This document shows, in pieces, positions 259 to 17,206 of a stretch of DNA of 38,084 bases. Under the pieces are notes generated by a model, which had not been told where the DNA came from, did no database searches, and saw only the letters and a program-made list of their open reading frames with translations. Origin of the DNA: a virus. The stretch is from the IMG/VR virus record IMGVR_UViG_3300048913_000099. One strand, written 5' to 3'. Each line of letters begins with the position of its first letter. The first letter of the stretch is position 1. Made by a program: the position numbers and the translations under genes.

Positions 259-413
259 AAGTAGCGTTCCTTGGTCAGGATCTCGCGCCATTTCTTGCTG
301 GGCACGAGGAACTTCACCAGCTTGTTGCCGCCCTTGATGGCCAGAAGCCAGTACAGGTAGGCGAACACCGGCACGAAGACAGCCTTCAGGGCAATGGCGT
401 ATAGCCAGTTCAT
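255..413 (-). CDS. Small hydrophobic membrane protein, 52 aa (MNWLYAIALKAVFVPVFAYLYWLLAIKGGNKLVKFLVPSKKWREILTKERYF), antisense to the late operon
   Basis: Hand-translated; it falls below the ORF-track length cutoff. AAGGA lies 7 nt upstream of the ATG at 413. The peptide has one clear TM segment and a basic tail. It is the only plausible coding content in the 258-517 gap. Confidence 0.5.
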   Translation of the reverse strand: MNWLYAIALKAVFVPVFAYLYWLLAIKGGNKLVKFLVPSKKWREILTKERYF

Positions 414-476
414 CGGGGTCGTCCTTGGATGGATCGCCGAATGCTACCACCGCCGGACCACCGCTGCGTTATCCAC

Positions 477-501
477 AGCCCGCCCTGAGCGGGCTTTTTT
501 A
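477..501 (+). terminator. Rho-independent terminator-like hairpin immediately upstream of the first tail fibre gene
   Basis: A 7-bp stem AGCCCGC/GCGGGCT (477-483 / 489-495) with loop CCTGA is followed by TTTTTTATT. Confidence 0.6.
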
Positions 502-516
502 TTGCCTGGAGCACCC

Positions 517-1302
517 ATGAGCGGACGTTTTTACGACCCGAACCCCACGTATTTCGATCTGCTCAGCAACCAGCCGGTGGCGGGCGGGTTCCTGGCGTTC
601 TTCGAACAGGGCACCAGCACGCCCAAAATGACCTGGTCGGATCAGGGCCTGACCATCCCGAACACGAACCCGGTGCCCCTGGATTCGTCCGGGCGCGCCA
701 ACGTGAACATCTGGCTGAGCGGGGCGTATTCGGTCGTCCTGCGTGACTCGCTGGGCGCCGTGATCTGGACCCGAGACGTGAGCGACGGGGCCGCTGGTGG
801 ACTGACCATCCCGACCCCGCTGCCTTCGGGCCAGTTCCTGACCAACGACGGCTCGATCCTGTCGTGGGGCTCGATCCTTCAGATGCCGGACCCGACCGGC
901 TCGGACGGGTACATCCCGGTCGCGAATGGCGGCACCTACATCCTTCAGGCGCCGACGCCAATCCCGACGCCCAACTACAGCTTCGGGGACAACTTCACCA
1001 AGGTCGGGACCAATCTGGACCAGTGGGGCACTGCCTCGATCCCGGCGAGCGCCGCGCAGATCGCCACCGGCAGCATCACGTTCCCCGTCCCGTACCTCAC
1101 GGTCCCGAACCTGCAGGTCACGATCAACAAGGGCTCCGGCGTCGTCTCGGCGGGCTACATCGGCGATATCGGCGTGTCCGCGGTCAGCACGACCGGCGCC
1201 ACCATCGCATGGGACCTGGGCATCGATGACACCCGGTCGCAGTACAACCTGACCAGCCCGATCCCGATCATGTGGCGTGCGGTGGGCAAGGTCGCCGCCT
1301 GA
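517..1302 (+). CDS. Tail fibre / tail-associated protein (261 aa)
   Basis: GGAG lies upstream of the ATG at 517. The N-terminus MSGRFYDPNPTYFDLLSNQPVAGGFLAFFEQGTSTP..LDSSGRANVNIW resembles the conserved N-terminal anchor domain of phage tail fibres and spikes. The annotated start at 394 lies upstream of the terminator and is unlikely. Confidence 0.7.
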   Translation: MSGRFYDPNPTYFDLLSNQPVAGGFLAFFEQGTSTPKMTWSDQGLTIPNTNPVPLDSSGRANVNIWLSGAYSVVLRDSLGAVIWTRDVSDGAAGGLTIPTPLPSGQFLTNDGSILSWGSILQMPDPTGSDGYIPVANGGTYILQAPTPIPTPNYSFGDNFTKVGTNLDQWGTASIPASAAQIATGSITFPVPYLTVPNLQVTINKGSGVVSAGYIGDIGVSAVSTTGATIAWDLGIDDTRSQYNLTSPIPIMWRAVGKVAA

Positions 1303-2240
1303 TGGCATCCCCGGCTGACGTACCGCGCATTGCGGAGCCAATCGCGGGGAATGGCGGCCATGTGACCCGGGCGTGGCTGGACTTCTTCCTCAAGCTGGCC
1401 TCGGCGCAGACACAACAGGATCTGGCCGAGCTTTACGCCCAACTGGCCGCTCGGGTGGCGCAGCTGGAGGATGGCCAGTCGCTGAGTTTCCAGTTGCTGG
1501 GACAGGGCTCAATCGGTGTCCAGGGCATCCCGCAGCCAGGCGGGGCGGTGATCATCACGCTGCAGAACGACAGCAACGCTCCCGGCAACACGATGTACTA
1601 CGGCACAGGGCCGACGGGTGCGAAGGGTTGGTTTGCGATCTCCAGCGCGATCTCTGGGACAACGAACCAGATCACCAAGACAACGGGAACGGATGGGGTC
1701 GTCGTATTGGCCTTGGCTCCCTCCGTCCTCGTCTCACTCGGGCTGGCCGATACGGCTCTGCAGGATGTAATCGCCGGGACCAACGTCACGATAGACAAGA
1801 CCGACCCGCGGCGGCCGATCATTTCTGCGACGGGCGGCAGTGGCGACAACCCGCTATTCCCGCAGCTTACCGACCAGCTTGGCAACCTGCTGACCGACCA
1901 GCTAGGCCAACCTCTGCGGCAGAACACGCCTGCCGTCCCGTGGTCGTGGCTCTACAACGTGCCCGACTACCAGCCGCTGGACTCTGACCTGGCCGCAATC
2001 GCGGCACTGACAGGCGCTGGCGTCCCCCTCAGAGCGACGGCTGGGACTTGGTCCTTGGCCACCATCAACGCCTTGGCGCCGATGACGCTGGCCGCAGCCA
2101 ACGCGCTGACAGGTGTCGCCGACTTCCAGATGGTGGCAATCACGGACCTGGCAGGCGGTCGCGAGCCCTGCTGGTACGACTCGACCGTAGCAAGCGGCAC
2201 GAAATGGCGCCGCTTCTCTGACCGGAGCATCGCGAACTGA
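1302..2240 (+). CDS. Tail fibre protein (312 aa)
   Basis: The start overlaps the upstream stop (ATGA). It has a short coiled-coil (DLAELYAQLAARVAQLEDG), Gly/Thr-rich beta-type sequence and a tandem LTDQLGN/LTDQLGQ repeat. It sits in the tail block. Confidence 0.6.
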   Translation: MASPADVPRIAEPIAGNGGHVTRAWLDFFLKLASAQTQQDLAELYAQLAARVAQLEDGQSLSFQLLGQGSIGVQGIPQPGGAVIITLQNDSNAPGNTMYYGTGPTGAKGWFAISSAISGTTNQITKTTGTDGVVVLALAPSVLVSLGLADTALQDVIAGTNVTIDKTDPRRPIISATGGSGDNPLFPQLTDQLGNLLTDQLGQPLRQNTPAVPWSWLYNVPDYQPLDSDLAAIAALTGAGVPLRATAGTWSLATINALAPMTLAAANALTGVADFQMVAITDLAGGREPCWYDSTVASGTKWRRFSDRSIAN

Positions 2241-2983
2241 TGGCGCTCGATCCCTCTATCTCCATCATCCGCGGCCTGCAAGCTTCGGTAGGCCTCAACG
2301 GGCTGACGGTCAGCGTGTCCCCGGGCATGTGCTACGTGCCGGGGACTGGCCGGGTACTGAGCGACGGCAGCGCCTCGGTGACGCTAAGCAGCCCGACAGC
2401 CAACACGTTCTACCACCTGTACGCCTACGACATGGGCAGCGGCCTGATGGGGCTGGAAGCGTCCACGACCGGCCCTGATGTTCCGTATCTCGGCACCGCG
2501 CGGTGCAAGACAGGCGACCCGACGCGACGCTACCTGATCAGCGGCCGCACCAACGCCAGCTCCGTTCTGCGCCCTGGCAAGCACACCCGGCCGTCCGAGA
2601 TGGGGAACCGGGTGATGCTGGACGCGGCGACTGCGGCCGGTAGTGTGCCGATCATGCTGCTCTCGGGGCTGGTGGCCACCACGCCGCAGACTGTTGACCT
2701 GTCTGCGGTACTGCCGGTGACGGCCAACCGGGCCATCGTCCAGGTGCTCAACCCGACGAACTTCACCCTTTACACCTCGCGGTCGGACGTGGGCGCCCCT
2801 TCGTCCACGAACTTTCAGTACGCCGCGATCCCCGGCTCCTCCCCGGTCCTCGACATCACGCTCGACGCCAACCGGCAGTTCACGGTTCTGTTGAACGCCT
2901 CTCTTCCCCTCATCGGCCCGATCTTGGGCCTACTCACAGGCTCGGTGTCCATCGCGCTGGTGGGTTACGACTTCGACAGGTAA
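2240..2983 (+). CDS. Tail-associated hypothetical protein (247 aa)
   Basis: The start overlaps the upstream stop (TGATG), GC3 is high, and it lies in the tail gene block. I recognise no motif. Confidence 0.6.
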   Translation: MALDPSISIIRGLQASVGLNGLTVSVSPGMCYVPGTGRVLSDGSASVTLSSPTANTFYHLYAYDMGSGLMGLEASTTGPDVPYLGTARCKTGDPTRRYLISGRTNASSVLRPGKHTRPSEMGNRVMLDAATAAGSVPIMLLSGLVATTPQTVDLSAVLPVTANRAIVQVLNPTNFTLYTSRSDVGAPSSTNFQYAAIPGSSPVLDITLDANRQFTVLLNASLPLIGPILGLLTGSVSIALVGYDFDR

Positions 2984-2988
2984 CGATC

Positions 2989-3429
2989 ATGCCCAAGTAC
3001 GCCACCGATTACACCGCAGCAGCTACCGTTTCTGGAGCCGACCTGTGTCAGATCGTCCAGGGCGGCGTCGACAAGAAAGCGACGTTGGCCCAGATCGCGG
3101 CGCTGGCGACCACGGGAAGCGGCGTCACGATCACCACGAAGACCGCCAGTGCAACGCTGGCGCTGGCTGATGGCGACTGGATCGAGATGGACGTGGCAAC
3201 CGCCAACACCCTCACTGTGCCGCCAAACTCGACCGTGGCGTTCCCGATAGGCGCTGTGCGCAACATCAACCAGCGCGGGGCAGGGCAGACGACGGTGGTA
3301 GCGGGTGCAGGCGTGACGATCCGCACCGACGAGACGCTGAAGCTGCGAAAGCAGTGGGCGACCGCGGTTCTGGTCAAGCGCGCCACCGACGAGTGGGTTC
3401 TAGCCGGCAGCCTGGAGGCTGCGCCGTGA
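2989..3429 (+). CDS. Hypothetical virion/tail protein (146 aa)
   Basis: It is tightly packed after the previous gene, has high GC3 and Ala/Thr/Val-rich beta-type composition. Confidence 0.6.
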   Translation: MPKYATDYTAAATVSGADLCQIVQGGVDKKATLAQIAALATTGSGVTITTKTASATLALADGDWIEMDVATANTLTVPPNSTVAFPIGAVRNINQRGAGQTTVVAGAGVTIRTDETLKLRKQWATAVLVKRATDEWVLAGSLEAAP

Positions 3430-5141
3430 TCCCCGGCGTGGTCGCCGGAGCACGGTTCCGGGGAGCACCTGCGAAAAAGCGCGTGCGCATCACCATCCCT
3501 GCGCAGACGGAGGCCATGTCCGGTTTCCCGGTTTACATTGACCTATCCTTACTGCCTCCGGCGGTCTGGACCGGCATGGCCTACAAAGACGGTCGCGATT
3601 TCAGGGCGAAGACTACGGCCGGGGTCGACATCCCGTTCCATCTGGTCCGTGTGGACCCGGCTGCGAAGGCAGGAGCCATGTTTGTTCGGGCGACTCTGAG
3701 TGCCTCGTCCATCACAGAATTTGACCTTCATTACGGAGATTCGTCGCTTGCCAAGGTGCCCAACAACGCGGCCAACGGTGCCTATGCGGTATGGGCAGAC
3801 TACCAGCGCGTATTCCTGTTCAATTTGGTCGAGACAGACTGGACCGGTGTTGGTTCTGCCGCGGCGCAGTCAAACCGCATCAAGTTGTTCGAACTGGTCA
3901 GCGACAAAACAGGGCTGACTGAGCATCAGGGCGTGTGTTGGGATGGCACTCACTACTACCTGACTGACACGAACGCCATCAACAAATACGACGCTTCGTG
4001 GAACCTGGTTGCGACAAATGCCAACCCGGTTGGCGATGTGGGTAACGGGACGAACCACTGCGGAGACCCCGACGTTCACAACGGCGTGCTTTACGTGCCA
4101 GTCGAGTCCTACACCAGCGTCACGGTGTTCTCGAACCAGCGCATCGCTCGGTTCAACGCGGCGACCCTGGCCTTCATCGACTCGGTCGACGTTTCGGCGC
4201 AGGCCGACGAGATATCGACCATCGCCATCAACGCTGAGCAGAACGCGCTGTGGACAACTAGATATAGCGATAGCGCCACCTTTAAGCTGAATCGATACAA
4301 CCTGAGTACCCTCGCATATGAGAGCTCCAGCAGCGGTAACCCGGGGCCCATGCGTGTTCAGGGCCTAGCCCGTTGGCGTGACATGTGGTTTGCCAATGGG
4401 GATACAGCAGATTTCACATTCCGTATGAGTGAGAACCTGGATACGGCTACGCGCGCATGGACGGATATCCCTGATGGTGCCACGTCCCGCGCTGGGAATT
4501 ACGAAGGGCTGGGGTCCACTGATGACAACCTTTTGGTACTGCGCGACGATGGAACGGGCACGGTCCTGCATACCATTCGGCCGCTCAATACTGAGGCTGG
4601 CGGCGGGTTCGAATCGGTGGTCGTCGGCAGCAACACCGGCTACATGCTCGGCCAGGGGCTTACCAACCAGGCCACCTTCACCATGGGCGCGACGATCATC
4701 GCCAACGCCTTTGCCGCGGCCAACCAGGCGATTCTCTCCTACACCGCAAACACGACGGCGAATACCAACCGCGTGACGCTCGGCTATCGAGGTGCGACGG
4801 GCAAGGTAGGATTGTGGGACACGGGCAATACCTGGCTGGAGTCGACCACGACGCCGGCGGCAGGGGCGAAAACGCGCGTCCACGCAAGGTACGTGGGCAC
4901 GACCTCCAGATCGCTGTTCTACAACGGCGTTCGAGAAGCCCACGCCGCGCCTATCACGACCGCGCCGACCGGCAAGGTCTCCCTGCATATGGGTGTCGAA
5001 GACCAGAGCCTGGCCGAGATGTTCGCGGGACGGATGGGCTTCGTCTACCTGCGAGCCAGCGCCCTATCGGATGCCTGGATCGCGGCCGAGTGCGCCAACC
5101 TGTCCGCTCCCGGCAGCTTCTACGCCGTGAGCACGCCTTGA
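3426..5141 (+). CDS. Putative receptor-binding tail protein: DUF2341-like N-terminus plus a LamG/concanavalin-A-like C-terminal domain (about 571 aa)
   Basis: GTG at 3426 overlaps the upstream stop; ATG at 3516 is an alternative start. The N-terminus (RITIPAQTEAMSGFPVYIDLSLLP) resembles DUF2341. The C-terminus (..TFTMGATIIAN...RVTLGYRG..LFYNGV..MGFVYLRASALSDAWI) resembles LamG/Laminin_G_3. GC looks lower than in the flanking genes. Confidence 0.6.
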   Translation: MIPGVVAGARFRGAPAKKRVRITIPAQTEAMSGFPVYIDLSLLPPAVWTGMAYKDGRDFRAKTTAGVDIPFHLVRVDPAAKAGAMFVRATLSASSITEFDLHYGDSSLAKVPNNAANGAYAVWADYQRVFLFNLVETDWTGVGSAAAQSNRIKLFELVSDKTGLTEHQGVCWDGTHYYLTDTNAINKYDASWNLVATNANPVGDVGNGTNHCGDPDVHNGVLYVPVESYTSVTVFSNQRIARFNAATLAFIDSVDVSAQADEISTIAINAEQNALWTTRYSDSATFKLNRYNLSTLAYESSSSGNPGPMRVQGLARWRDMWFANGDTADFTFRMSENLDTATRAWTDIPDGATSRAGNYEGLGSTDDNLLVLRDDGTGTVLHTIRPLNTEAGGGFESVVVGSNTGYMLGQGLTNQATFTMGATIIANAFAAANQAILSYTANTTANTNRVTLGYRGATGKVGLWDTGNTWLESTTTPAAGAKTRVHARYVGTTSRSLFYNGVREAHAAPITTAPTGKVSLHMGVEDQSLAEMFAGRMGFVYLRASALSDAWIAAECANLSAPGSFYAVSTP

Positions 5142-6092
5142 TCGAGCGAAGCGTTCTACTGTGAAGTAGGACAGGGCCGCGCCAAGGATGGCGCCGCCAC
5201 CGCCGATAGCCAGGCACTCGAATCCGGTCACGTCATGCCCGCGCAGCCAGAGCATGATCGGGTAGTGCCACAGGTAGATGCCGTAGGACAGCTTCCCGAT
5301 CCACACCAGTGGCGCCCACGCGAGCAGGCGGACCTGGTGGGCACCCAGCACCAGCAGCAGCGAACCGACCTCAGCCACGGCCATCCACACGGTCAGGGCG
5401 GTATCGACCTTCGTGTATGCCTGCGACATGGCCAGCAGCAGCAACGCACCGCCGAGAGGGGCGGCCAGCCGCGGGACCTGCGGCTTCCAGAGGCCGGCAG
5501 CAGCGCCGAGCAGCAGACCGGACAGGCGGGTGTCGAACCGGTAGTAGGGCTGTTGCCACGAGTCCACGTTGAACACGACGTGCCAACGCCACAGGGTGGC
5601 GGCCGCGGCGAGCGACAGGACCACCACGGTCCAGTACCTGCGGGGCAGCCTCAGAACCAACAGCAGGGCAACCGGCCAGGCCAGGTAGAAGTGCTCTTCC
5701 ACCGACAGGCTCCAGGTGTGCTGGACCACCCACGGAATCTTCCAGAAGGCGAAGCCGTAATCGGAAAGGTAGGTGGCGGCAACCAGCGCGTCGCGCGCGT
5801 GACCCTGCCGGTTCGGGAAGGCCAATGGCCCGGCGATCAGGTAGACGCCCAGGAACAGCAGCAGTGCCGGATAGAGCCGGCGCAGGCGGCGCAGGTAGAA
5901 GGCGGGGACGTTGATGGTTGCAGTGGCGCTGTGCTGGTCGGCCAGCAGGCGCGTAATCAGGTAGCCCGACAGGACGAAGAAGACGTCGACCCCGAAGAAC
6001 CCGCCGTGGAACCCCTCAATCCGGGCGTGGAACGCCAAGACCAGCAGCACGGCCAAGGCTCTCAGTCCATCGAGTGCAGGGTTGTACCGCAT
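5064..6092 (-). CDS. Acyltransferase family 3 membrane protein (OafA/Oac-like O-antigen or polysaccharide O-acetyltransferase), 342 aa
   Basis: MRYNPALDGLRALAVLLVLAFHARIEGFHGGFFGVDVFFVLSGYLITRLL is the canonical Acyl_transf_3 N-terminus, and the protein is multi-TM. GAGGGGA precedes the ATG at 6092. The 87-aa upstream extension in the ORF track is not supported by GC3. Confidence 0.85.
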   Translation of the reverse strand: MRYNPALDGLRALAVLLVLAFHARIEGFHGGFFGVDVFFVLSGYLITRLLADQHSATATINVPAFYLRRLRRLYPALLLFLGVYLIAGPLAFPNRQGHARDALVAATYLSDYGFAFWKIPWVVQHTWSLSVEEHFYLAWPVALLLVLRLPRRYWTVVVLSLAAAATLWRWHVVFNVDSWQQPYYRFDTRLSGLLLGAAAGLWKPQVPRLAAPLGGALLLLAMSQAYTKVDTALTVWMAVAEVGSLLLVLGAHQVRLLAWAPLVWIGKLSYGIYLWHYPIMLWLRGHDVTGFECLAIGGGGAILGAALSYFTVERFARSRRAHGVEAAGSGQVGALGRDPGIR

Positions 6093-6167
6093 GGCTTCCC
6101 CTCGTTTTCCCCGGCTGGATTGTGCCACGGTCGCAACCCCTGAGACGGTCGGGCGTATCCTGCGGCC

Positions 6168-6350
6168 ATGGACACCCCTGACAAGCCCGAACCGCCAGAC
6201 CGCCCGGACCCCACCAAGCTGAGGCCGGACCACAGCCACCTGCTGGTGCGCGACACCCGGACCCCGGAGGAGCAGCAGGCCGCCTCGCTGAAAGAGTCGG
6301 CGAGGCGCAAGGGTAGGGGGCGGTCGAAGTGGTGGGAGAAGGGGAGCTAG
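6168..6350 (+). CDS. Hypothetical charged, Pro-rich 60-aa protein (uncertain)
   Basis: GC3 is about 90% in this frame and clearly lower in the overlapping minus frames. There is no visible SD and no recognised motif. Confidence 0.3.
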   Translation: MDTPDKPEPPDRPDPTKLRPDHSHLLVRDTRTPEEQQAASLKESARRKGRGRSKWWEKGS

Positions 6351-6383
6351 CAAGTTGCTGTAAAAGCGGCTGACCCTTTACAG

Positions 6384-6612: not shown

Positions 6613-7542
6613 TCAGGCCAGCTTCTTGATCGCATCGGCCAAATGGCCCGGCGCGAGGTGAGCATACCGCCTCGTCATCGCCAGCGAACTGTGCCCAAGC
6701 ACCTCCGAAACCGTGTGCAGCGATACCCCGGCCTGCACCAGCCAGGACGCGCAGGTGTGGCGCAGATCATGCCACCGCACGTCCTGCAGCCCGCACGCCT
6801 CGCGCGCCGCCGCCCATGACGACCTGACCTGATCCTCTGAGATCGGCAGGGGCAGCCGCTGAGCGATCCCCAGCACCTTCGGGTGCAGCGGGACAAGCTG
6901 CAGGGAACTCGTCTTGCTCGTCCGGTCCAGCCGGATGAAGCCCTCCTTGACCTCGTGATGGGTCAGGCGCAGCAGGTGCCCACGGCGAATGCCCGTATAG
7001 GCTGCCAAACGCACGTAGTCGCCCGCCAATGGATTCGGGCAAGCCCTCGCCAGTGCCTCGACCTGCTCGGTCGTCAGGAACGTCTCGCGCGGCTTCTCAG
7101 GCAACAGCGCAATCGCCGCTGGCCTTTCCAACCAACCCCATTCCCGCCACGCCATCCGCGTGATCTGCCTCAGAATCCGGCCCTTGTGGTTCACCGTGGC
7201 CGGTGCCTTGCCGATCTCCGCAGCCTTGATCTCGGCCCACACCTTCGCCGTGTCCGTCAGCTTCCTGCCGCGGATATAAGGCATCAGCGCCTTCACGTGC
7301 GAATTGGTCTTTGCCTCCGACCGCAGCCGGGGCAGATGCTCCACCTGGAACTTGTCGATGGCATCCGCTATTGATCGCTCGGGTTGACGACCAGCCGAAG
7401 CTGCGTTGAACGACGCGAGCCACTTCTTTTCGAAGGCTTTGGCCTCAGCGTATGACCAGCTGCGAGACGTCTTTCGATACGTTCTTCCGCCGTGTCCAAC
7501 TGTAACTTGATAGCTTCCGTTGGGGCGCTTGGTGATTGGCAT
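6613..7542 (-). CDS. int: Tyrosine integrase (309 aa from the MPITKRPNGSYQV start)
   Basis: The C-terminal catalytic region WHDLRHTCASWLVQAGVSLHTVSEVLGHSSLAMTRRYAHL gives the R..HxxR..Y signature. The N-terminus KRPNGSYQVTV..YRKT is arm-binding type. The gene is adjacent to attP. ATG at 7566 is an alternative start. Confidence 0.9.
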   Translation of the reverse strand: MPITKRPNGSYQVTVGHGGRTYRKTSRSWSYAEAKAFEKKWLASFNAASAGRQPERSIADAIDKFQVEHLPRLRSEAKTNSHVKALMPYIRGRKLTDTAKVWAEIKAAEIGKAPATVNHKGRILRQITRMAWREWGWLERPAAIALLPEKPRETFLTTEQVEALARACPNPLAGDYVRLAAYTGIRRGHLLRLTHHEVKEGFIRLDRTSKTSSLQLVPLHPKVLGIAQRLPLPISEDQVRSSWAAAREACGLQDVRWHDLRHTCASWLVQAGVSLHTVSEVLGHSSLAMTRRYAHLAPGHLADAIKKLA

Positions 7543-7730
7543 GCCTGCAACCTGCATTTGGCCCACCAGACGGACAGGTCTGCGGGGTGGATTCGATCTG
7601 ACTTCGCGCCCTGACCAAGGCGGCAGGCAGCAAGGCTACCCGCATCAATGGCCCGGCGGAGGGTCTTGGTGGAACAGGCGCACCTTTCAGCCGCCTGCGC
7701 CAGGGTCATTAGCTGCTCAGCCGCCGACAT
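7368..7730 (-). CDS. xis: Excisionase-family DNA-binding protein (120 aa; the C-terminal tail overlaps int)
   Basis: GAGGAGG lies upstream of the ATG at 7730. LMTLAQAAERCACSTKTLRRAIDAGSLAACRLGQGAKSDRIHPADLSVWW matches the excisionase/MerR-like HTH pattern. No stop occurs until 7368, so the ORF overlaps int by about 175-200 nt. Confidence 0.65.
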   Translation of the reverse strand: MSAAEQLMTLAQAAERCACSTKTLRRAIDAGSLAACRLGQGAKSDRIHPADLSVWWAKCRLQACQSPSAPTEAIKLQLDTAEERIERRLAAGHTLRPKPSKRSGSRRSTQLRLVVNPSDQ

Positions 7731-14630: not shown

Positions 14631-14825
14631 TCAGGCCTCCTCACGCACGTGGCGGGCAGCGTCGTAGCTGGCTGCCATTTCGGTGGCAAGGAAGGCGGTC
14701 TCGCGTTCGGACTGGCCCGCGCAGAGGTCTTTCACACTCTTGGCGCGGCTGAAGAAGATGGCCAGGCCGCCGACTACGGCCACGCTGGAACCGGTGACTA
14801 CGATGACTGCGAGCAGGTAATCCAT
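14631..14825 (-). CDS. Small membrane protein (64 aa, N-terminal TM)
   Basis: MDYLLAVIVVTGSSVAVVGGLAIFF... GAGGAGG lies upstream of the ATG at 14825. Confidence 0.6.
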   Translation of the reverse strand: MDYLLAVIVVTGSSVAVVGGLAIFFSRAKSVKDLCAGQSERETAFLATEMAASYDAARHVREEA

Positions 14826-14828
14826 GGC

Positions 14829-14993
14829 TCAGCCCTCCTCGCCGTCTGCGTCGAAGCAGGGGCCGGAGATCGCCTCGACAACGCCCTGAAGCTCGGCAGG
14901 CAGGCCATAGGCGTACTGCTGAATCTGGTCGCGGCAGTAGTTGATCAGGACTGCCAGCTGTTCCGGGGTAGCGGTGAGTGCCTGGACGTTCAT
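14829..14993 (-). CDS. First gene of the leftward early operon, acidic 54-aa protein
   Basis: Hand-translated as MNVQALTATPEQLAVLINYCRDQIQQYAYGLPAELQGVVEAISGPCFDADGEEG. GGAGAA lies upstream of the ATG, about 45 nt downstream of the predicted PL. Confidence 0.5.
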   Translation of the reverse strand: MNVQALTATPEQLAVLINYCRDQIQQYAYGLPAELQGVVEAISGPCFDADGEEG

Positions 14994-15045
14994 CTCGTTC
15001 TCCAGCCCCGCCTCGTTGTGAGGGTGTCTTGGGGCGACGTGGCCT

Positions 15046-15093
15046 AGTCTAGCGAACTAGACCATGCAGTCAAGAGAACTAGACGCTCTAGAC
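15046..15093 (-). promoter_or_regulatory. PL promoter with OL operators
   Basis: On the minus strand, TTGACT (15073-15068) is followed by 16 nt and then TAGACT (15051-15046). The palindromic operator GTCTAG-N4-CTAGAC at 15047-15062 overlaps the -10. A second related site lies at 15078-15093. Confidence 0.65.
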
Positions 15094-15104
15094 CAAATAA
15101 TTTT

Positions 15105-15129
15105 CTGAACGTTATGCGGTTTCGTTCAG
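15105..15129 (-). terminator. Hairpin immediately after the stop of the cI-linked ORF (weak terminator candidate)
   Basis: The 7-bp stem CTGAACG/CGTTCAG has an 11-nt loop. On the minus strand it is followed by AAAATTATTT, which is an imperfect U tract. Confidence 0.3.
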
Positions 15130-15762
15130 TTATCGAAAGATTAGGACAGCCACGCCAAAAACTACCGCGCCAAGTAGATAGTGGGCGACGGTCGAAATTG
15201 AGGCTAGGGTCTTGCTAAGTGTAGCGATGTCATTGCGCGTGGGCGGCAAGAGCGAACTATCTTCGAATGGGTCGCCGATGACCTCGGCAGCAGGCTCATC
15301 AACAATTCCAATCCGAGCAGATGCCACTTTGCGAGAGGCTGTCGATGTATCCCAAACCTTTCCGCTCCCATCCGGCTCCCAGTTGTACTCAACGTCCTGC
15401 ACATCCAGCGTGATGTAGTCGAAGCGCTTCCCCGACATCCAGGCCATATAGAGGGCATCAAGCTCCGTCTGTGCCATTCCTACGTGGCCGAAGAAATACT
15501 CGTCACTGTCGTCATCGGCGTCAATTCTGGCAGAAAAGCCGCACATGCCTGCTACAGATGCCTCTTTGGCGACCTTTGCAATCCTGTCCATGCGCACGAT
15601 CTGAATAGACCAAGCGGCCTTGCTGAGGTCTTTCCCTGATTTGTCCTGAATGCTGGAGCGCCAGTGCAGCTTTCCCTGTAAGACAATGGTGCAGTCGCTC
15701 AGGCCGTCAGCAGATGCCGACTCTGCAGAAACCTTGTCGATTTTGATGTTGAAGAGAGCCAT
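15130..15762 (-). CDS. Unknown tail-anchored membrane protein (210 aa), translationally coupled to cI
   Basis: The ATG at 15762 shares one nt with the cI stop (TGATG), and GGGAGGA lies in the last cI codons. The C-terminal TM is VAHYLLGAVVFGVAVLIF. GC and GC3 look clearly lower than the genome average. I recognise no motif. Confidence 0.75.
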   Translation of the reverse strand: MALFNIKIDKVSAESASADGLSDCTIVLQGKLHWRSSIQDKSGKDLSKAAWSIQIVRMDRIAKVAKEASVAGMCGFSARIDADDDSDEYFFGHVGMAQTELDALYMAWMSGKRFDYITLDVQDVEYNWEPDGSGKVWDTSTASRKVASARIGIVDEPAAEVIGDPFEDSSLLPPTRNDIATLSKTLASISTVAHYLLGAVVFGVAVLIFR

Positions 15763-16442
15763 CAATCCTCCCAGCTTCCTATCCATCGCACACGACCAAT
15801 GATCTGTATCGGAAAGCGCTTATCGTCCATGCGGCGCGCCTTTTTCCAATTATGGTCGCCATTGGGGTTATCCGCCTTGAAGTACACAAGGTCGTCAAGA
15901 ATTTCGCAGCGCTTTACCTGGTACTCATTGTTATGTGCTCCAGGGACAAGGATCACGAACAGCGCTCCGTCCTTGGGTCTAGTGTCGGATGTGTCAAACA
16001 GGATCGCGTCCCCACTGAGAACCCGAGGTTCCATTGAATCGCCGCGGCCGTACATGACCGCTAGGGCAGGGGCGCGAAGTCGCTTCCTTGCCAGTGACGA
16101 AGCCTTGAACTTCAGCTTGTGAGTCTCTGCGTACTCTGCAGCCTCGGGACCCCCGCCCAGACCCATCGCCTGAGCGTAGCCCTTCACATCATCCCATTCG
16201 CCTTCCTGCGAAATGCTCGTTCCTTCCATTGGGCCTCGTCCGTACTGGAGCCAATCGGGACTGACTTGAAGGGCGGCCGATAGTTTGGCCACGGTCGATG
16301 CTCGGATTTTCTCCGCCTTGGTGGTCCCGTCGAGGATGAAATAGATGCCCGCCTTGCTGAGAACCTTTCTGGCAATCAGATCAGGGGCCGTCATCCCGCG
16401 CAGGGCCATCGCCTTCTTAACGCGTTCAGCCATCGTTTCCAT
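15762..16442 (-). CDS. cI: CI-type repressor: N-terminal HTH plus C-terminal S24/LexA-like autopeptidase (226 aa)
   Basis: The HTH region is GMTAPDLIARKVLSKAGIYFILDG. The S24 motif is YGRGDSMEP...VKRCE. The gene is divergent from cro. No SD precedes the ATG at 16442, so the mRNA may be leaderless; ATG at 16433 is an alternative start. Confidence 0.85.
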   Translation of the reverse strand: METMAERVKKAMALRGMTAPDLIARKVLSKAGIYFILDGTTKAEKIRASTVAKLSAALQVSPDWLQYGRGPMEGTSISQEGEWDDVKGYAQAMGLGGGPEAAEYAETHKLKFKASSLARKRLRAPALAVMYGRGDSMEPRVLSGDAILFDTSDTRPKDGALFVILVPGAHNNEYQVKRCEILDDLVYFKADNPNGDHNWKKARRMDDKRFPIQIIGRVRWIGSWED

Positions 16443-16444
16443 AT

Positions 16445-16508
16445 GGCTAGAAAAGTAGACTGAATGGGCGCTAGAGCGCTTGACTTCGAAGTCTAGAGCG
16501 CTAGACTG
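16445..16508. promoter_or_regulatory. OR operator cluster (three related 16-mers) with PR, and presumably PRM
   Basis: The three sites are GTCTAGAGCGCTAGAC (16491-16506), CGCTAGAGCGCTTGAC (16469-16484) and GGCTAGAAAAGTAGAC (16445-16460), with centres 22 and 24 bp apart. PR is TTGACT (16480-16485), 16 nt, then TAGACT (16502-16507). Confidence 0.65.
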
Positions 16509-16515
16509 CACTTCT

Positions 16516-16704
16516 ATGGACATGTCAAAGACCAGCGTCAAAAGGCTGCTCGGCTTCGATTCCGATGCCGAACTTGCACGGTTCTTCGGCGTTAGCCGCG
16601 GGGCCGTCTTCCACTGGCCCGACGACGAGCCGATTCCTGACTCCCGGCAATGGGAGCTCAAAGCACGCCGTCCTGAACTCTTCCGCCGCAAGAAGGCCGC
16701 CTGA
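16516..16704 (+). CDS. cro: Cro-like HTH regulator (about 62 aa)
   Basis: LLGFDSDAELARFFGVSRGAVFHWPDDEPIPDSRQWELKA matches the Cro/YdaS-type HTH pattern. It is the first gene downstream of PR. ATG at 16522 is an alternative start. Confidence 0.75.
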   Translation: MDMSKTSVKRLLGFDSDAELARFFGVSRGAVFHWPDDEPIPDSRQWELKARRPELFRRKKAA

Positions 16705-16783
16705 CATGGCCGCCACGTCCCTGATCTGAATTTCCAACTGGCTGCTTTCCGTTTCGGTGAGCGGCCATTTTCCGGCCCATCCA

Positions 16784-16821
16784 GGGGAATCGTGGGGAAC
16801 ACGTACTCCCCGGCATTCCCC
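16784..16821 (+). other. Extended GC-rich RNA hairpin between cro and the next gene
   Basis: GGGGAA..GGGGA-(8-nt loop)-TCCCC..TTCCCC forms a two-tier stem (6 + 5 bp with an internal loop). No U tract follows. Confidence 0.4.
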
Positions 16822-16840
16822 AGAACCCAAGAGAGTCCCT

Positions 16841-17206
16841 ATGCGACACCTCAGCATCACCTATCAAGGCGGCCTTTCCCAGCGTTCCCGCAGCCTTCGG
16901 GAGCATGTGTTGGTGCAGGTCCACCAGCGCGGCGTGGTCGCGGTGGCGGGTCAGATGGACCTGTCTCCGTCGAAGCTTTCGGAGAAGCTGGCAGGCCAGG
17001 ACAGCGGCGGCAAACCCCGCGGCATGACGATTGATGAGCTGGAGACCTACATCACCACTCAGGGTGACGTGAGCCCCATCCACTACCTGATCGAGAAGTT
17101 CCTGACCTCCCCCGAAGCGGCCCACGGTGAGGCCATTGCGGAGATTACCAAGCTGCTCGGCACGTTGCCCGCGCTGCTGGAGCGGGCAGGGGTCAAATGG
17201 CCGTGA
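16841..17206 (+). CDS. Hypothetical regulator in the cII position (121 aa)
   Basis: MRHLSITYQGGLSQRSRSLREHVLVQVHQRGVVAVAGQMDLSPSKLSEKLAG contains a likely HTH. The cII-like role is inferred from position only. Confidence 0.55.
   Translation: MRHLSITYQGGLSQRSRSLREHVLVQVHQRGVVAVAGQMDLSPSKLSEKLAGQDSGGKPRGMTIDELETYITTQGDVSPIHYLIEKFLTSPEAAHGEAIAEITKLLGTLPALLERAGVKWP

What the first reader, a model, noticed from the sequence alone, without database searches (positions are those of the whole stretch)
15130..15762. An unknown tail-anchored 210-aa ORF is translationally coupled to the cI repressor, which makes it a candidate lysogen-expressed exclusion or defence gene
Seen in the sequence: the ATG at 15762 shares a base with the cI stop (TGATG), and a strong SD (GGGAGGA) lies in the last cI codons. 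The ORF should therefore be made whenever cI is made, that is, in the lysogen. It fills the whole space between cI and PL/OL. In other lambdoid phages that slot holds exclusion genes such as lambda rexAB (established knowledge). The protein has an acidic soluble domain of about 185 aa with no motif I recognise, and a single C-terminal TM (VAHYLLGAVVFGVAVLIF) two residues from the stop. By eye its GC is about 50% and its GC3 about 55%, against above 60% and about 80-90% elsewhere, which suggests a horizontally acquired moron. A hairpin follows the stop codon.
Basis: partly seen in the sequence, partly recalled or inferred. Interest (0 to 1): 0.75.

Follow-up and report, generated by a model that had tools for sequence, protein, structure and literature searches.

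The report
New membrane-anchored gene coupled to phage repressor
A prophage makes an unknown membrane-anchored protein together with its repressor, and this protein belongs to a previously undescribed family whose genomic behaviour points to a role in blocking other phages, although that role has not been tested.

Summary
ORF210 (15130..15762, minus strand) starts at an ATG that shares one base with the cI stop (TGATG). It has a GGGAGGA Shine-Dalgarno and a C-terminal membrane helix, and it fills the gap between cI and OL/PL.

It is a real gene from an undescribed family:
- An exhaustive HMMER search found 61 relatives.
- There was no hit in Pfam, PHROGs, PADLOC or NCBIfam, and no PDB sequence match.
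- The AlphaFold model is confident (pLDDT 92.8) but matches nothing in PDB or BFVD.
- 50 of 51 members keep the tail anchor, and all keep a WEPDGSGKxWD-type motif.

In five independent Xanthomonadaceae prophages the homologue overlaps the cI stop by one base. cI is 64-92% identical between these phages, but the ORF is only 33-45% identical. Against the closest relative, DNA homology stops 5 nt into the ORF and resumes 7 nt before its stop codon. The ORF is therefore a highly divergent cassette between conserved flanks.

Distant homologues are stand-alone, low-GC3 genes in mobile elements or islets. Several sit beside TIR-TM, GajB-like, Schlafen/AlbA_2 or PDC-M66-like genes.

The lysogen-expressed exclusion or defence reading is supported by context but not proven. 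The claim that low GC marks the ORF as a separately acquired moron fails, because cI and cro share the low GC.

The parts
15130..15762 (-). ORF210, a 210-aa tail-anchored protein and founding member of an undescribed family
   Evidence: for the sequence. One search found 61 relatives. One search gave an AF2 model with pLDDT 92.8. Searches found no known family.
15762..16442 (-). cI-type repressor (226 aa, HTH plus Peptidase_S24). Its stop codon overlaps the ORF210 start.
   Evidence: PF00717 at 2e-9, HTH_26. (phrog_4 at 8e-28); 91.6% identical to the cI of the S. maltophilia ATCC 19867 prophage.
15760..15764 (-). TGATG stop/start overlap, the translational-coupling junction
   Evidence: Searches show it conserved as TGATG or TAATG in 5 of 5 prophage alleles.
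15766..15772 (-). Shine-Dalgarno GGGAGGA inside the last cI codons (W-E-D)
   Evidence: It is present in 3 of 5 alleles and degenerate (GGGCTGA, GGGCAGA) in the other two.
15349..15381 (-). Codons for the family signature W-E-P-D-G-S-G-K-V-W-D (residues 128-138)
   Evidence: P130, G132 and W137 are invariant, and D131 and D138 are at least 90% conserved across 51 sequences. In one search this is the only stretch of the ORF interior still detectable by blastn against the S. maltophilia allele.
15238..15300 (-). Acidic, low-confidence linker (residues 155-175)
   Evidence: pLDDT is 60-82 here and above 92 elsewhere; pI 4.05, five acidic residues and no basic ones.
15136..15189 (-). C-terminal transmembrane helix (residues 192-209), one residue from the stop
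   Evidence: Kyte-Doolittle 2.37 over 18 residues. 50 of 51 family members have such a segment within 12 residues of the C-terminus, usually followed by R or K.
15105..15129 (-). Inverted repeat CTGAACG-N11-CGTTCAG followed by AAAATTATTT. Probably the terminator of the cI-ORF210 transcript (analogue of lambda t-imm).
   Evidence: the TGAAC/GTTCA core is invariant in 5 prophages with a variable loop and no covariation.: -8 kcal/mol, z -0.65. The function is inferred.
15046..15097 (-). OL-like operators (GTCTAG-N4-CTAGAC type) and PL (-35 TTGACT at 15073..15068, -10 TAGACT at 15051..15046)
   Evidence: promoter scan. (repeat families D1, D2, I1, I3, shared with OR). Searches show conservation in the related prophages.
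16447..16510 (.). OR-like operators and PR (-35 at 16480, -10 ending at 16507). The PRM-equivalent promoter for cI-ORF210 must lie here.
   Evidence: PRM itself is inferred and was not located.
16516..16704 (+). cro-like gene, divergent from cI
   Evidence: P22_Cro at 1.7e-4, below the Pfam cut-off. (phrog_409 at 2e-7). The start codon is inferred, because the TTG at 16480 coincides with the PR -35.

Best explanation
ORF210 is an accessory gene of the prophage immunity cassette. It belongs to a previously undescribed family of tail-anchored inner-membrane proteins.

Proposed expression in the lysogen:
- The repressor transcript runs cI then ORF210 and ends at the conserved hairpin just before OL/PL.
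- Ribosomes that finish cI restart at the overlapping AUG (UGAUG), so the protein is made in a fixed, low ratio to cI.

Proposed protein layout:
- The protein inserts through its C-terminal helix.
- A roughly 155-residue acidic, beta-rich domain stays in the cytoplasm, held at the inner face of the membrane by a flexible acidic linker.

Proposed function:
- The variable cytoplasmic domain recognises a component of a superinfecting phage, or a membrane-proximal host complex that such a phage needs.
- The outcome is protection of the lysogen. My estimates are about 0.3 for Rex-like abortive infection through clustering of the membrane helices and membrane damage, and about 0.2 for non-lethal exclusion at or just after genome entry.

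Shown here: the gene, the coupling junction, the family, the tail anchor, the divergent-cassette pattern, and defence-type neighbours of some distant members.

Inferred: co-transcription with cI, termination at the hairpin, membrane topology, and the anti-phage function and mechanism.
For: 1. Slot and coupling. The layout cro / OR / cI / ORF / hairpin / OL-PL mirrors lambda cro / OR / cI / rexA-rexB / OL. The one-base stop/start overlap is kept in 5 of 5 independent prophage alleles, including two with a degenerate SD. These are the window, S. maltophilia ATCC 19867, an IMG/VR contig, a JGI contig and Xanthomonas citri.

2. Real, folded protein. There are 61 relatives, and the AF2 model has pLDDT 92.8 and pTM 0.74.

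3. Conserved tail anchor in 50 of 51 members.

4. Divergent cassette. cI is 64-92% identical across the ten pairs, while the ORF is 33-45% identical, and ORF divergence does not track cI divergence. Against the S. maltophilia prophage, about 80% DNA homology runs over 16687..15757, stops 5 nt into the ORF, and resumes at 15139..14999. This pattern is expected of a specificity determinant in an arms race, or of frequent allele exchange.

5. Autonomous function. Distant homologues are never next to cI and share no conserved partner gene. They are low-GC3 single genes in mobile contexts with an integrase, resolvase, transposase or terminase nearby.

6. Defence neighbours. TIR-TM (PADLOC 1.4e-73) plus DUF4062 beside L011. 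A GajB-like UvrD helicase (2e-41) and an AAA_16 ATPase flanking L007. SLFN_AlbA_2 beside L016. Weak PDC-M66A/B-like HipA_2/DUF3037 genes in L017.
Against: - There is no functional data of any kind, and no RNA evidence of expression in a lysogen.
- There is no hit to any of 5027 PADLOC models.
- The defence-neighbour evidence is anecdotal: about 4 of roughly 15 informative contexts, with no background statistics. Other members sit between housekeeping genes (L005 between mpl-like and glnE-like genes).
- No invariant catalytic-type residues were found. The invariant positions are P, G, W and D in one hairpin-like motif, so the biochemical activity is open.
- A single C-terminal helix whose sequence is not conserved looks more like an anchor than a channel.
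- The basic C-terminal residue does not fit the positive-inside rule for an N-in topology.
- The high divergence could reflect weak constraint plus cassette exchange rather than selection. dN/dS cannot be estimated at 33-45% identity.
Confidence: 0.5

Rival explanations
1. Lysogenic conversion aimed at the host rather than at phages. The membrane-tethered domain binds and modulates a host inner-membrane machine such as type IV pilus assembly, secretion, division or transport. This changes host phenotype, and any phage resistance would be a side effect.
For: The cytoplasmic domain is held at the membrane, and the TM sequence itself is not conserved, which suggests an anchor. The same phage carries another conversion-type gene, an Acyl_transf_3 acyltransferase next to the integrase. 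Some distant homologues lie between housekeeping genes with no defence neighbours.
Against: A protein that targets a conserved host machine would be expected to be conserved. Instead it is the most divergent element of the cassette. The family spans Alpha-, Beta- and Gammaproteobacteria with different envelopes. Several members sit beside defence genes.
Confidence: 0.2
2. A prophage-internal regulatory role. The protein is a membrane-located partner of cI that tunes induction or maintenance of lysogeny, for example by sensing envelope state or by sequestering or stabilising the repressor or an antirepressor.
For: Strict one-base coupling to cI in 5 of 5 prophage alleles implies fixed stoichiometry with the repressor. 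The cI C-terminal codons and the ORF start are physically interlocked.
Against: More distant family members keep the same architecture and motif without any adjacent repressor or conserved partner, so the activity does not need cI. cI has its own S24 self-cleavage domain. A partner of a 92%-identical cI would not be expected to be only 41% identical.
Confidence: 0.1
3. A selfish or addiction-type membrane toxin, or a latent lysis-related factor. It would be kept harmless at low repressor-coupled levels, and its function would be retention of the element rather than defence.
For: It is a single small membrane protein that travels alone on mobile elements and low-GC islets. Weak HipA_2-type neighbours in L017 and a weak, sub-threshold match to an uncharacterised family (DUF6364) for the upstream gene in L019 are toxin-antitoxin-like; this reading of them is inferred.
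Against: No cognate antitoxin or conserved partner gene was found. The large, confidently folded 155-residue domain with a conserved surface motif is unlike small hydrophobic toxins. Expression is coupled to the most stably expressed prophage gene.
Confidence: 0.08
4. It is not a functional gene, only a chance or decaying ORF in the cI-OL spacer.
For: Only the query itself was found by the word-indexed search of 5.8 billion clusters. There were no matches in 50,697 phage genomes or 72,556 plasmids.
Against: There are 61 relatives by exhaustive HMMER, with full-length alignments and invariant residues. The model has pLDDT 92.8 with the family alignment against 52 without it. Length, start and tail anchor are conserved across 33-45%-identical alleles.
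Confidence: 0.02

Closest known systems
Lambda rexA-rexB (Rex abortive-infection system)
   Same: Same slot and orientation: downstream of cI, on the cI strand, before OL/PL (lambda layout checked). By established knowledge, rexAB is transcribed with cI from PRM in the lysogen, ends at a terminator before OL, and combines a cytoplasmic sensor with a membrane effector. ORF210 would combine the two in one chain; this part is inference.
   Different: No sequence relationship (hhalign probability 0.1-0.3%). ORF210 is one protein with one C-terminal helix, whereas Rex is RexA plus the four-helix RexB. The ORF210 start overlaps the cI stop, whereas lambda has a 112-nt gap between cI and rexA. No phenotype is known for ORF210.
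Other accessory genes in or near lambdoid immunity regions: HK022 nun, 933W stk, BTP1 bstA, P22 sieB (recalled from the literature, not tested here)
   Same: They establish that the region next to the repressor is a recurrent home for lysogen-expressed genes that act against other phages.
   Different: These proteins are unrelated to each other. nun, stk and bstA encode soluble proteins. P22 itself has nothing between c2 and OL. ORF210 shows no homology to P22 SieB. Homology to Nun, Stk and BstA was not tested directly, but no Pfam, PHROG or PADLOC hit was found.
P22 SieA (inner-membrane superinfection exclusion protein of a P22-like phage; PMC10883804)
   Same: [quoted passage not shown] The window phage is P22-like by its portal and terminase.
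   Different: No sequence relationship. sieA lies elsewhere in the genome under its own promoter. ORF210 has a large cytoplasmic domain and a single tail anchor.
Single-chain defence proteins that join a sensor or enzyme domain to transmembrane helices (for example TIR-TM in PADLOC, and CBASS or Pycsar TM effectors, the latter from general knowledge)
   Same: A soluble domain plus a membrane segment in a small protein that travels in defence islands. One family member lies directly beside a TIR-TM gene.
   Different: The soluble domain matches no known fold. The helix is at the extreme C-terminus. No signal-producing partner gene is conserved.

Membership tests
Lambda Rex system (RexA/RexB) | Located between cI and OL/PL on the cI strand | tested here: met
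   for the window. for lambda.
Lambda Rex system (RexA/RexB) | Sequence homology to RexA or RexB | tested here: not met
   hhalign of family profile A1 against RexA (probability 0.14%) and RexB (0.28%).
Lambda Rex system (RexA/RexB) | Two components: a soluble sensor plus a polytopic (four-helix) membrane protein | tested here: not met
   A single 210-aa protein with one hydrophobic segment and no second gene before OL.
Lambda Rex system (RexA/RexB) | Abortive-infection phenotype with membrane depolarisation | not testable with these tools
   Needs infection assays.
P22 SieA / SieB superinfection exclusion proteins | Sequence homology | tested here: not met
   hhalign probability 0.2% (SieA) and 0.3% (SieB).
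Known anti-phage defence families (PADLOC-DB v2.0.0) | Match to any of 5027 defence-protein models | tested here: not met
   (window protein, E up to 1). (all 51 members of A1, E up to 0.01).
Curated protein families (Pfam-A, PHROGs v4, NCBIfam 20) | Match to any model | tested here: not met
   for the window protein. for all 51 members, with only one spurious hit at 0.005.
Tail-anchored membrane proteins (topological class) | A single hydrophobic helix within about 30 residues of the C-terminus, and no N-terminal signal or other TM segment | tested here: met
   Kyte-Doolittle 2.37 for residues 192-209, and 50 of 51 members have the same feature; one continuous helix over residues 176-209. Actual membrane insertion is not testable here.
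Moron in the strict sense (autonomous unit with its own promoter and terminator and a deviant composition) | Own promoter | tested here: not met
   There is no intergenic space (one-base overlap with cI). The sigma-70 scan found only PR and PL.
Moron in the strict sense (autonomous unit with its own promoter and terminator and a deviant composition) | Composition different from the neighbouring phage genes | tested here: inconclusive
   GC3 is 0.62 against 0.76-0.92 for most genes, but cI (0.64) and cro (0.69) are equally low. Distant homologues are clearly low-GC3 inserts in their genomes.
Moron in the strict sense (autonomous unit with its own promoter and terminator and a deviant composition) | Terminator after the gene | tested here: inconclusive
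   The inverted repeat is conserved in 5 prophages. It is weak, shows no covariation, and was not called by the terminator scan.

The most novel reading that the evidence does not exclude
The family is a new, widespread single-gene anti-phage system with a previously unseen fold. A hypervariable cytoplasmic recognition domain is tethered to the inner membrane by a tail anchor. It senses an incoming phage at the membrane and either blocks genome entry or collapses the membrane, acting as a one-polypeptide functional equivalent of RexA plus RexB. In Xanthomonadaceae prophages, its alleles are swapped as cassettes behind the repressor to change which competitors are excluded.
Probability: 0.3. 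Interest if true: 0.75.

Novelty: new variant of a known kind. Interest (0 to 1): 0.6.

Why it matters
Genes expressed with the prophage repressor decide which other phages can infect a lysogen. That matters for phage therapy and biocontrol of Stenotrophomonas maltophilia and Xanthomonas, the hosts in which this subfamily is found.

This work turns an orphan ORF into a defined family:
- 61 representatives.
- A signature motif.
- A conserved tail anchor.
- A confident structural model with no known structural neighbour.

It also gives two testable handles. One is a culture-collection strain, S. maltophilia ATCC 19867, that carries an allele. The other is five natural alleles behind near-identical repressors, which are ideal for allele-swap tests of specificity.

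If the protein is a defence protein, it adds a new fold and a very compact architecture to the list of membrane-acting systems. If it is not, it is still an unexplained, rapidly diverging partner of cI.

Tried and rejected
Searches that found nothing:
- Word-indexed homologue search with the single protein found only the query itself. The family appeared only with exhaustive HMMER.
- Single-sequence AF2 was useless (pLDDT 52). The family alignment was needed.
- Foldseek against PDB and BFVD gave no match at E <= 0.001. The best TM-scores were 0.2-0.3, to OB-fold proteins and prohead proteases. I treat these as noise and make no fold claim.
- The profile search against PDB sequences found nothing.
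- tblastn against 50,697 phage genomes and 72,556 plasmids found no match. Megablast of the 9-kb neighbourhood against phages also found nothing.
- The search for related loci with the 51-sequence alignment failed because no stretch was conserved enough. A 10-sequence subset worked.
- Literature searches for tail-anchored prophage exclusion proteins or repressor-downstream defence genes returned nothing on this family.

Ideas tested and dropped:
- Homology to RexA, RexB, SieA or SieB: rejected.
- A conserved partner gene next to distant homologues: none found.
- A Cys-His-Asp catalytic triad, suggested by invariant C74, D81 and H93 in the prophage subfamily: rejected as a family feature, because these positions vary in the wider alignment.
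- Covariation support for the post-stop hairpin: none, because the stem never varies.
- The GC-based claim of separate acquisition: rejected.

Full report
**1. The observation**

The minus strand of 14700..17200 shows a lambdoid immunity region.

- cI runs 16442..15762. It is 226 aa, with Peptidase_S24 at 2e-9 plus an HTH, and phrog_4 'transcriptional repressor' at 8e-28.
- A cro-like gene diverges from cI on the plus strand.
- Repeats of a GTCTAG-N4-CTAGAC-type operator lie at 16447..16510 (OR) and 15046..15097 (OL).
- The operators overlap two mirror-image promoter matches with TTGACT / TAGACT hexamers. PR is at 16480..16507 on the plus strand, and PL is at 15073..15046 on the minus strand.

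For the ORF itself:

- Its ATG (15762..15760) shares its A with the cI stop TGA (15764..15762).
- GGGAGGA lies at 15772..15766.
- The stop TAA is at 15132..15130.
- The repeat CTGAACG-N11-CGTTCAG follows at 15129..15105, and OL starts about ten bases later.

Two numbers need correcting. GC is 53.9% and GC3 is 62%, and cI (56.7% / 64%) and cro (59% / 69%) are low as well, while most other genes have GC3 of 0.76-0.92. The low-GC patch is the whole immunity cassette, so composition does not mark the ORF as a separate acquisition.

**2. Is it a real gene, and what family is it?**

- The window protein gave no hit in Pfam, PHROGs, PADLOC or NCBIfam.
- The word-indexed search of 5.8 billion clusters found only the protein itself.
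- tblastn against 50,697 phage genomes and 72,556 plasmids found nothing.
- The exhaustive HMMER search of 1.84 billion representatives found 61 proteins at E <= 0.001. Four of these, the query among them, reach E <= 1e-30. Nearly all are 190-240 aa and align end to end.

The 51-sequence alignment A1 shows:

- Invariant P130, G132 and W137.
- At least 90% conservation of G72, G111, D131 and D138.
- The signature G-x-E-Y-G-W-E-P-D-G-S-G-K-x-W-D.

In 50 of 51 members the most hydrophobic 18-residue window lies within 12 residues of the C-terminus, usually followed by R or K.

None of the 51 members hits Pfam, PADLOC or PHROGs. A profile search of PDB sequences is empty.

With the family alignment, AlphaFold2 gives pLDDT 92.8 and pTM 0.74, against 52.4 without it. 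The model has three parts:

- A beta-rich domain with two short helices (residues 1-154).
- A lower-confidence acidic linker (residues 155-175).
- One long helix (residues 176-209) whose second half is the membrane segment.

Foldseek finds nothing at E <= 0.001 in PDB or BFVD, and the best TM-scores are 0.2-0.3. This is a genuine, folded and so far undescribed family.

**3. The prophage subfamily**

Five independent alleles were recovered with flanking DNA:

- The window.
- S. maltophilia ATCC 19867 (L004 = L010).
- An IMG/VR and metagenome contig (L009 = L018).
- A JGI contig (L032).
- A Xanthomonas citri assembly (L034; named).

In all five the gene follows a 226-228-aa S24 repressor and overlaps its stop by one base: TGATG three times and TAATG twice. 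The SD is strong in three alleles and degenerate in two (GGGCTGA, GGGCAGA). Keeping the overlap without the SD is what termination-reinitiation coupling predicts.

All five also keep TGAAC-N12/13-GTTCA right after the stop, then an A/T-rich run, then OL/PL. The stem never varies, so there is no covariation, and it is weak (-8 kcal/mol, z -0.65). I read it as the terminator that keeps the repressor transcript out of the PL operon, the analogue of lambda t-imm. A protein-binding palindrome is not excluded.

**4. A divergent cassette**

Across the ten pairs, cI is 64-92% identical while the ORF is only 33-45% identical, and the two do not track each other. The window ORF is closest (45%) to the allele behind a 66%-identical cI. 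It is only 41% identical to the allele behind a 92%-identical cI.

At the DNA level, homology to the S. maltophilia prophage (about 80%) runs from cro through cI to 15757, which is 5 nt into the ORF. It resumes at 15139, which is 7 nt before the stop codon, and continues through the hairpin and OL/PL. Only the 36 nt encoding the signature motif are detectable in between.

Either the ORF evolves much faster than its flanks, or old alleles are exchanged by recombination in the conserved flanks. Both are typical of specificity determinants under conflict. Neither is proof. dN/dS is not estimable at this divergence.

**5. Distant members**

Homologues at 20-30% identity are never next to a repressor and share no conserved neighbour. 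They are single genes with GC3 well below their surroundings, for example 0.52 against 0.80-0.85 in Pseudoxanthomonas and 0.41 against 0.84-0.89 in a Burkholderiales MAG.

The informative contexts are:

- L011: an integrase-bounded islet beside TIR-TM (PADLOC 1.4e-73) and DUF4062.
- L007: between an AAA_16 ATPase and a GajB-like UvrD helicase (2e-41).
- L016: beside SLFN_AlbA_2.
- L017: near weak PDC-M66A/B-like HipA_2/DUF3037 genes and a resolvase.
- P0070: near Fic and an integrase.
- P0069: near transposases and HerA_C.
- L015: in a phage with a terminase.
- L041: in an element with RepB_primase and HNH genes.
- L027: two tandem paralogues with a resolvase and SRAP.

The activity is therefore autonomous and mobile, and it often keeps company with defence genes. 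This is a small sample without background statistics.

**6. Mechanism**

The best-supported reading (confidence 0.5) is a lysogen-expressed, repressor-coupled, tail-anchored inner-membrane protein that protects the lysogen against other phages. The slot and orientation are those of lambda rexAB.

The architecture places a variable recognition domain at the cytoplasmic face of the membrane. My estimates are about 0.3 for a Rex-like abortive outcome through clustering of the helices, and about 0.2 for non-lethal exclusion at entry.

Points against:

- There are no functional data.
- There is no PADLOC match.
- No catalytic-type invariant residues were found.
- The TM sequence looks like a mere anchor.
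- The terminal basic residue fits the positive-inside rule poorly.

Rivals:

- Host-directed lysogenic conversion (0.2).
- An induction or maintenance partner of cI (0.1). This is weakened by the cI-free distant members and by the 41% against 92% identity contrast.
- An addiction-type membrane toxin (0.08).
- A non-gene (0.02), effectively refuted.

**7. Comparison with known systems**

It works like the immunity-region accessory genes in position and probable expression. It is not a member of any of their families:

- hhalign probabilities to RexA, RexB, SieA and SieB are 0.1-0.3%.
- It is one protein with one helix, not a RexA/RexB pair.
- P22 itself has no gene in this slot.
- It is not a strict moron, because it has no promoter of its own.

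**8. Verdict**

The kind of thing, a repressor-linked accessory gene, is known. The protein family, its predicted fold and the hard-wired one-base coupling with a highly divergent cassette are new. I rate it a new variant of a known kind, with interest 0.6.

Noticed in passing
window 5064..6353 (-): An Acyl_transf_3 protein (Pfam 1.8e-30) sits between tail-fibre/tailspike-like genes (394..5141, +) and the integrase (6613..7566, -). By position and family it looks like an O-antigen-acetylase-type lysogenic-conversion gene, which would make it a second candidate exclusion function in the same phage.
   Followed up: partly
window 15105..15129 and the same site in L004, L009, L032, L034: The repeat TGAAC-N12/13-GTTCA after the ORF stop is invariant in sequence in five prophages, while its loop varies. 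It shows no covariation and only weak folding energy. It could be a terminator or a protein-binding palindrome; this is undecided.
   Followed up: partly
L017 2054..3079, L027 6374..7012, L042 3..707: SRAP (SOS response associated peptidase, PF02586) genes lie next to distant family members in three unrelated loci. This is either a recurrent neighbour or shared mobile-element cargo.
   Followed up: no
L027 4545..5270 and 5564..6226: Two tandem paralogues of the family, each with a C-terminal hydrophobic tail. The second lacks the WEPDGSGK signature and has GDGWGGGRQWE instead.
   Followed up: no
window 16442..16522: The cI ATG (16442) lies 5 nt from the nearest operator-like site (16447..16462). 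The listed cro start (TTG at 16480) coincides with the PR -35, so cro probably starts at ATG 16516 or 16522, only about 9-15 nt after the -10. Both immunity genes may therefore be leaderless or nearly so. This is inference.
   Followed up: no
window 14631..14825 (-): A 64-aa ORF, second in the PL operon, has an N-terminal hydrophobic helix (MDYLLAVIVVTGSSVAVVGGLAIFF) and matches no family. It is a small membrane protein of unknown role.
   Followed up: no
alignment A5 (prophage subfamily), residues 74, 81, 93 of ORF210: C74, D81 and H93 are invariant in the six cI-linked alleles but not across the wider family. This is a subfamily-specific feature of unknown meaning.
   Followed up: partly
whole window; L001: The phage is P22-like (P22_portal, Terminase_3, GP3_package, NinB, RusA). 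It has no near relative among 50,697 deposited phage genomes. Its cro-cI DNA is about 80% identical to a prophage of S. maltophilia ATCC 19867, so the host is probably a Stenotrophomonas or a close relative.
   Followed up: partly
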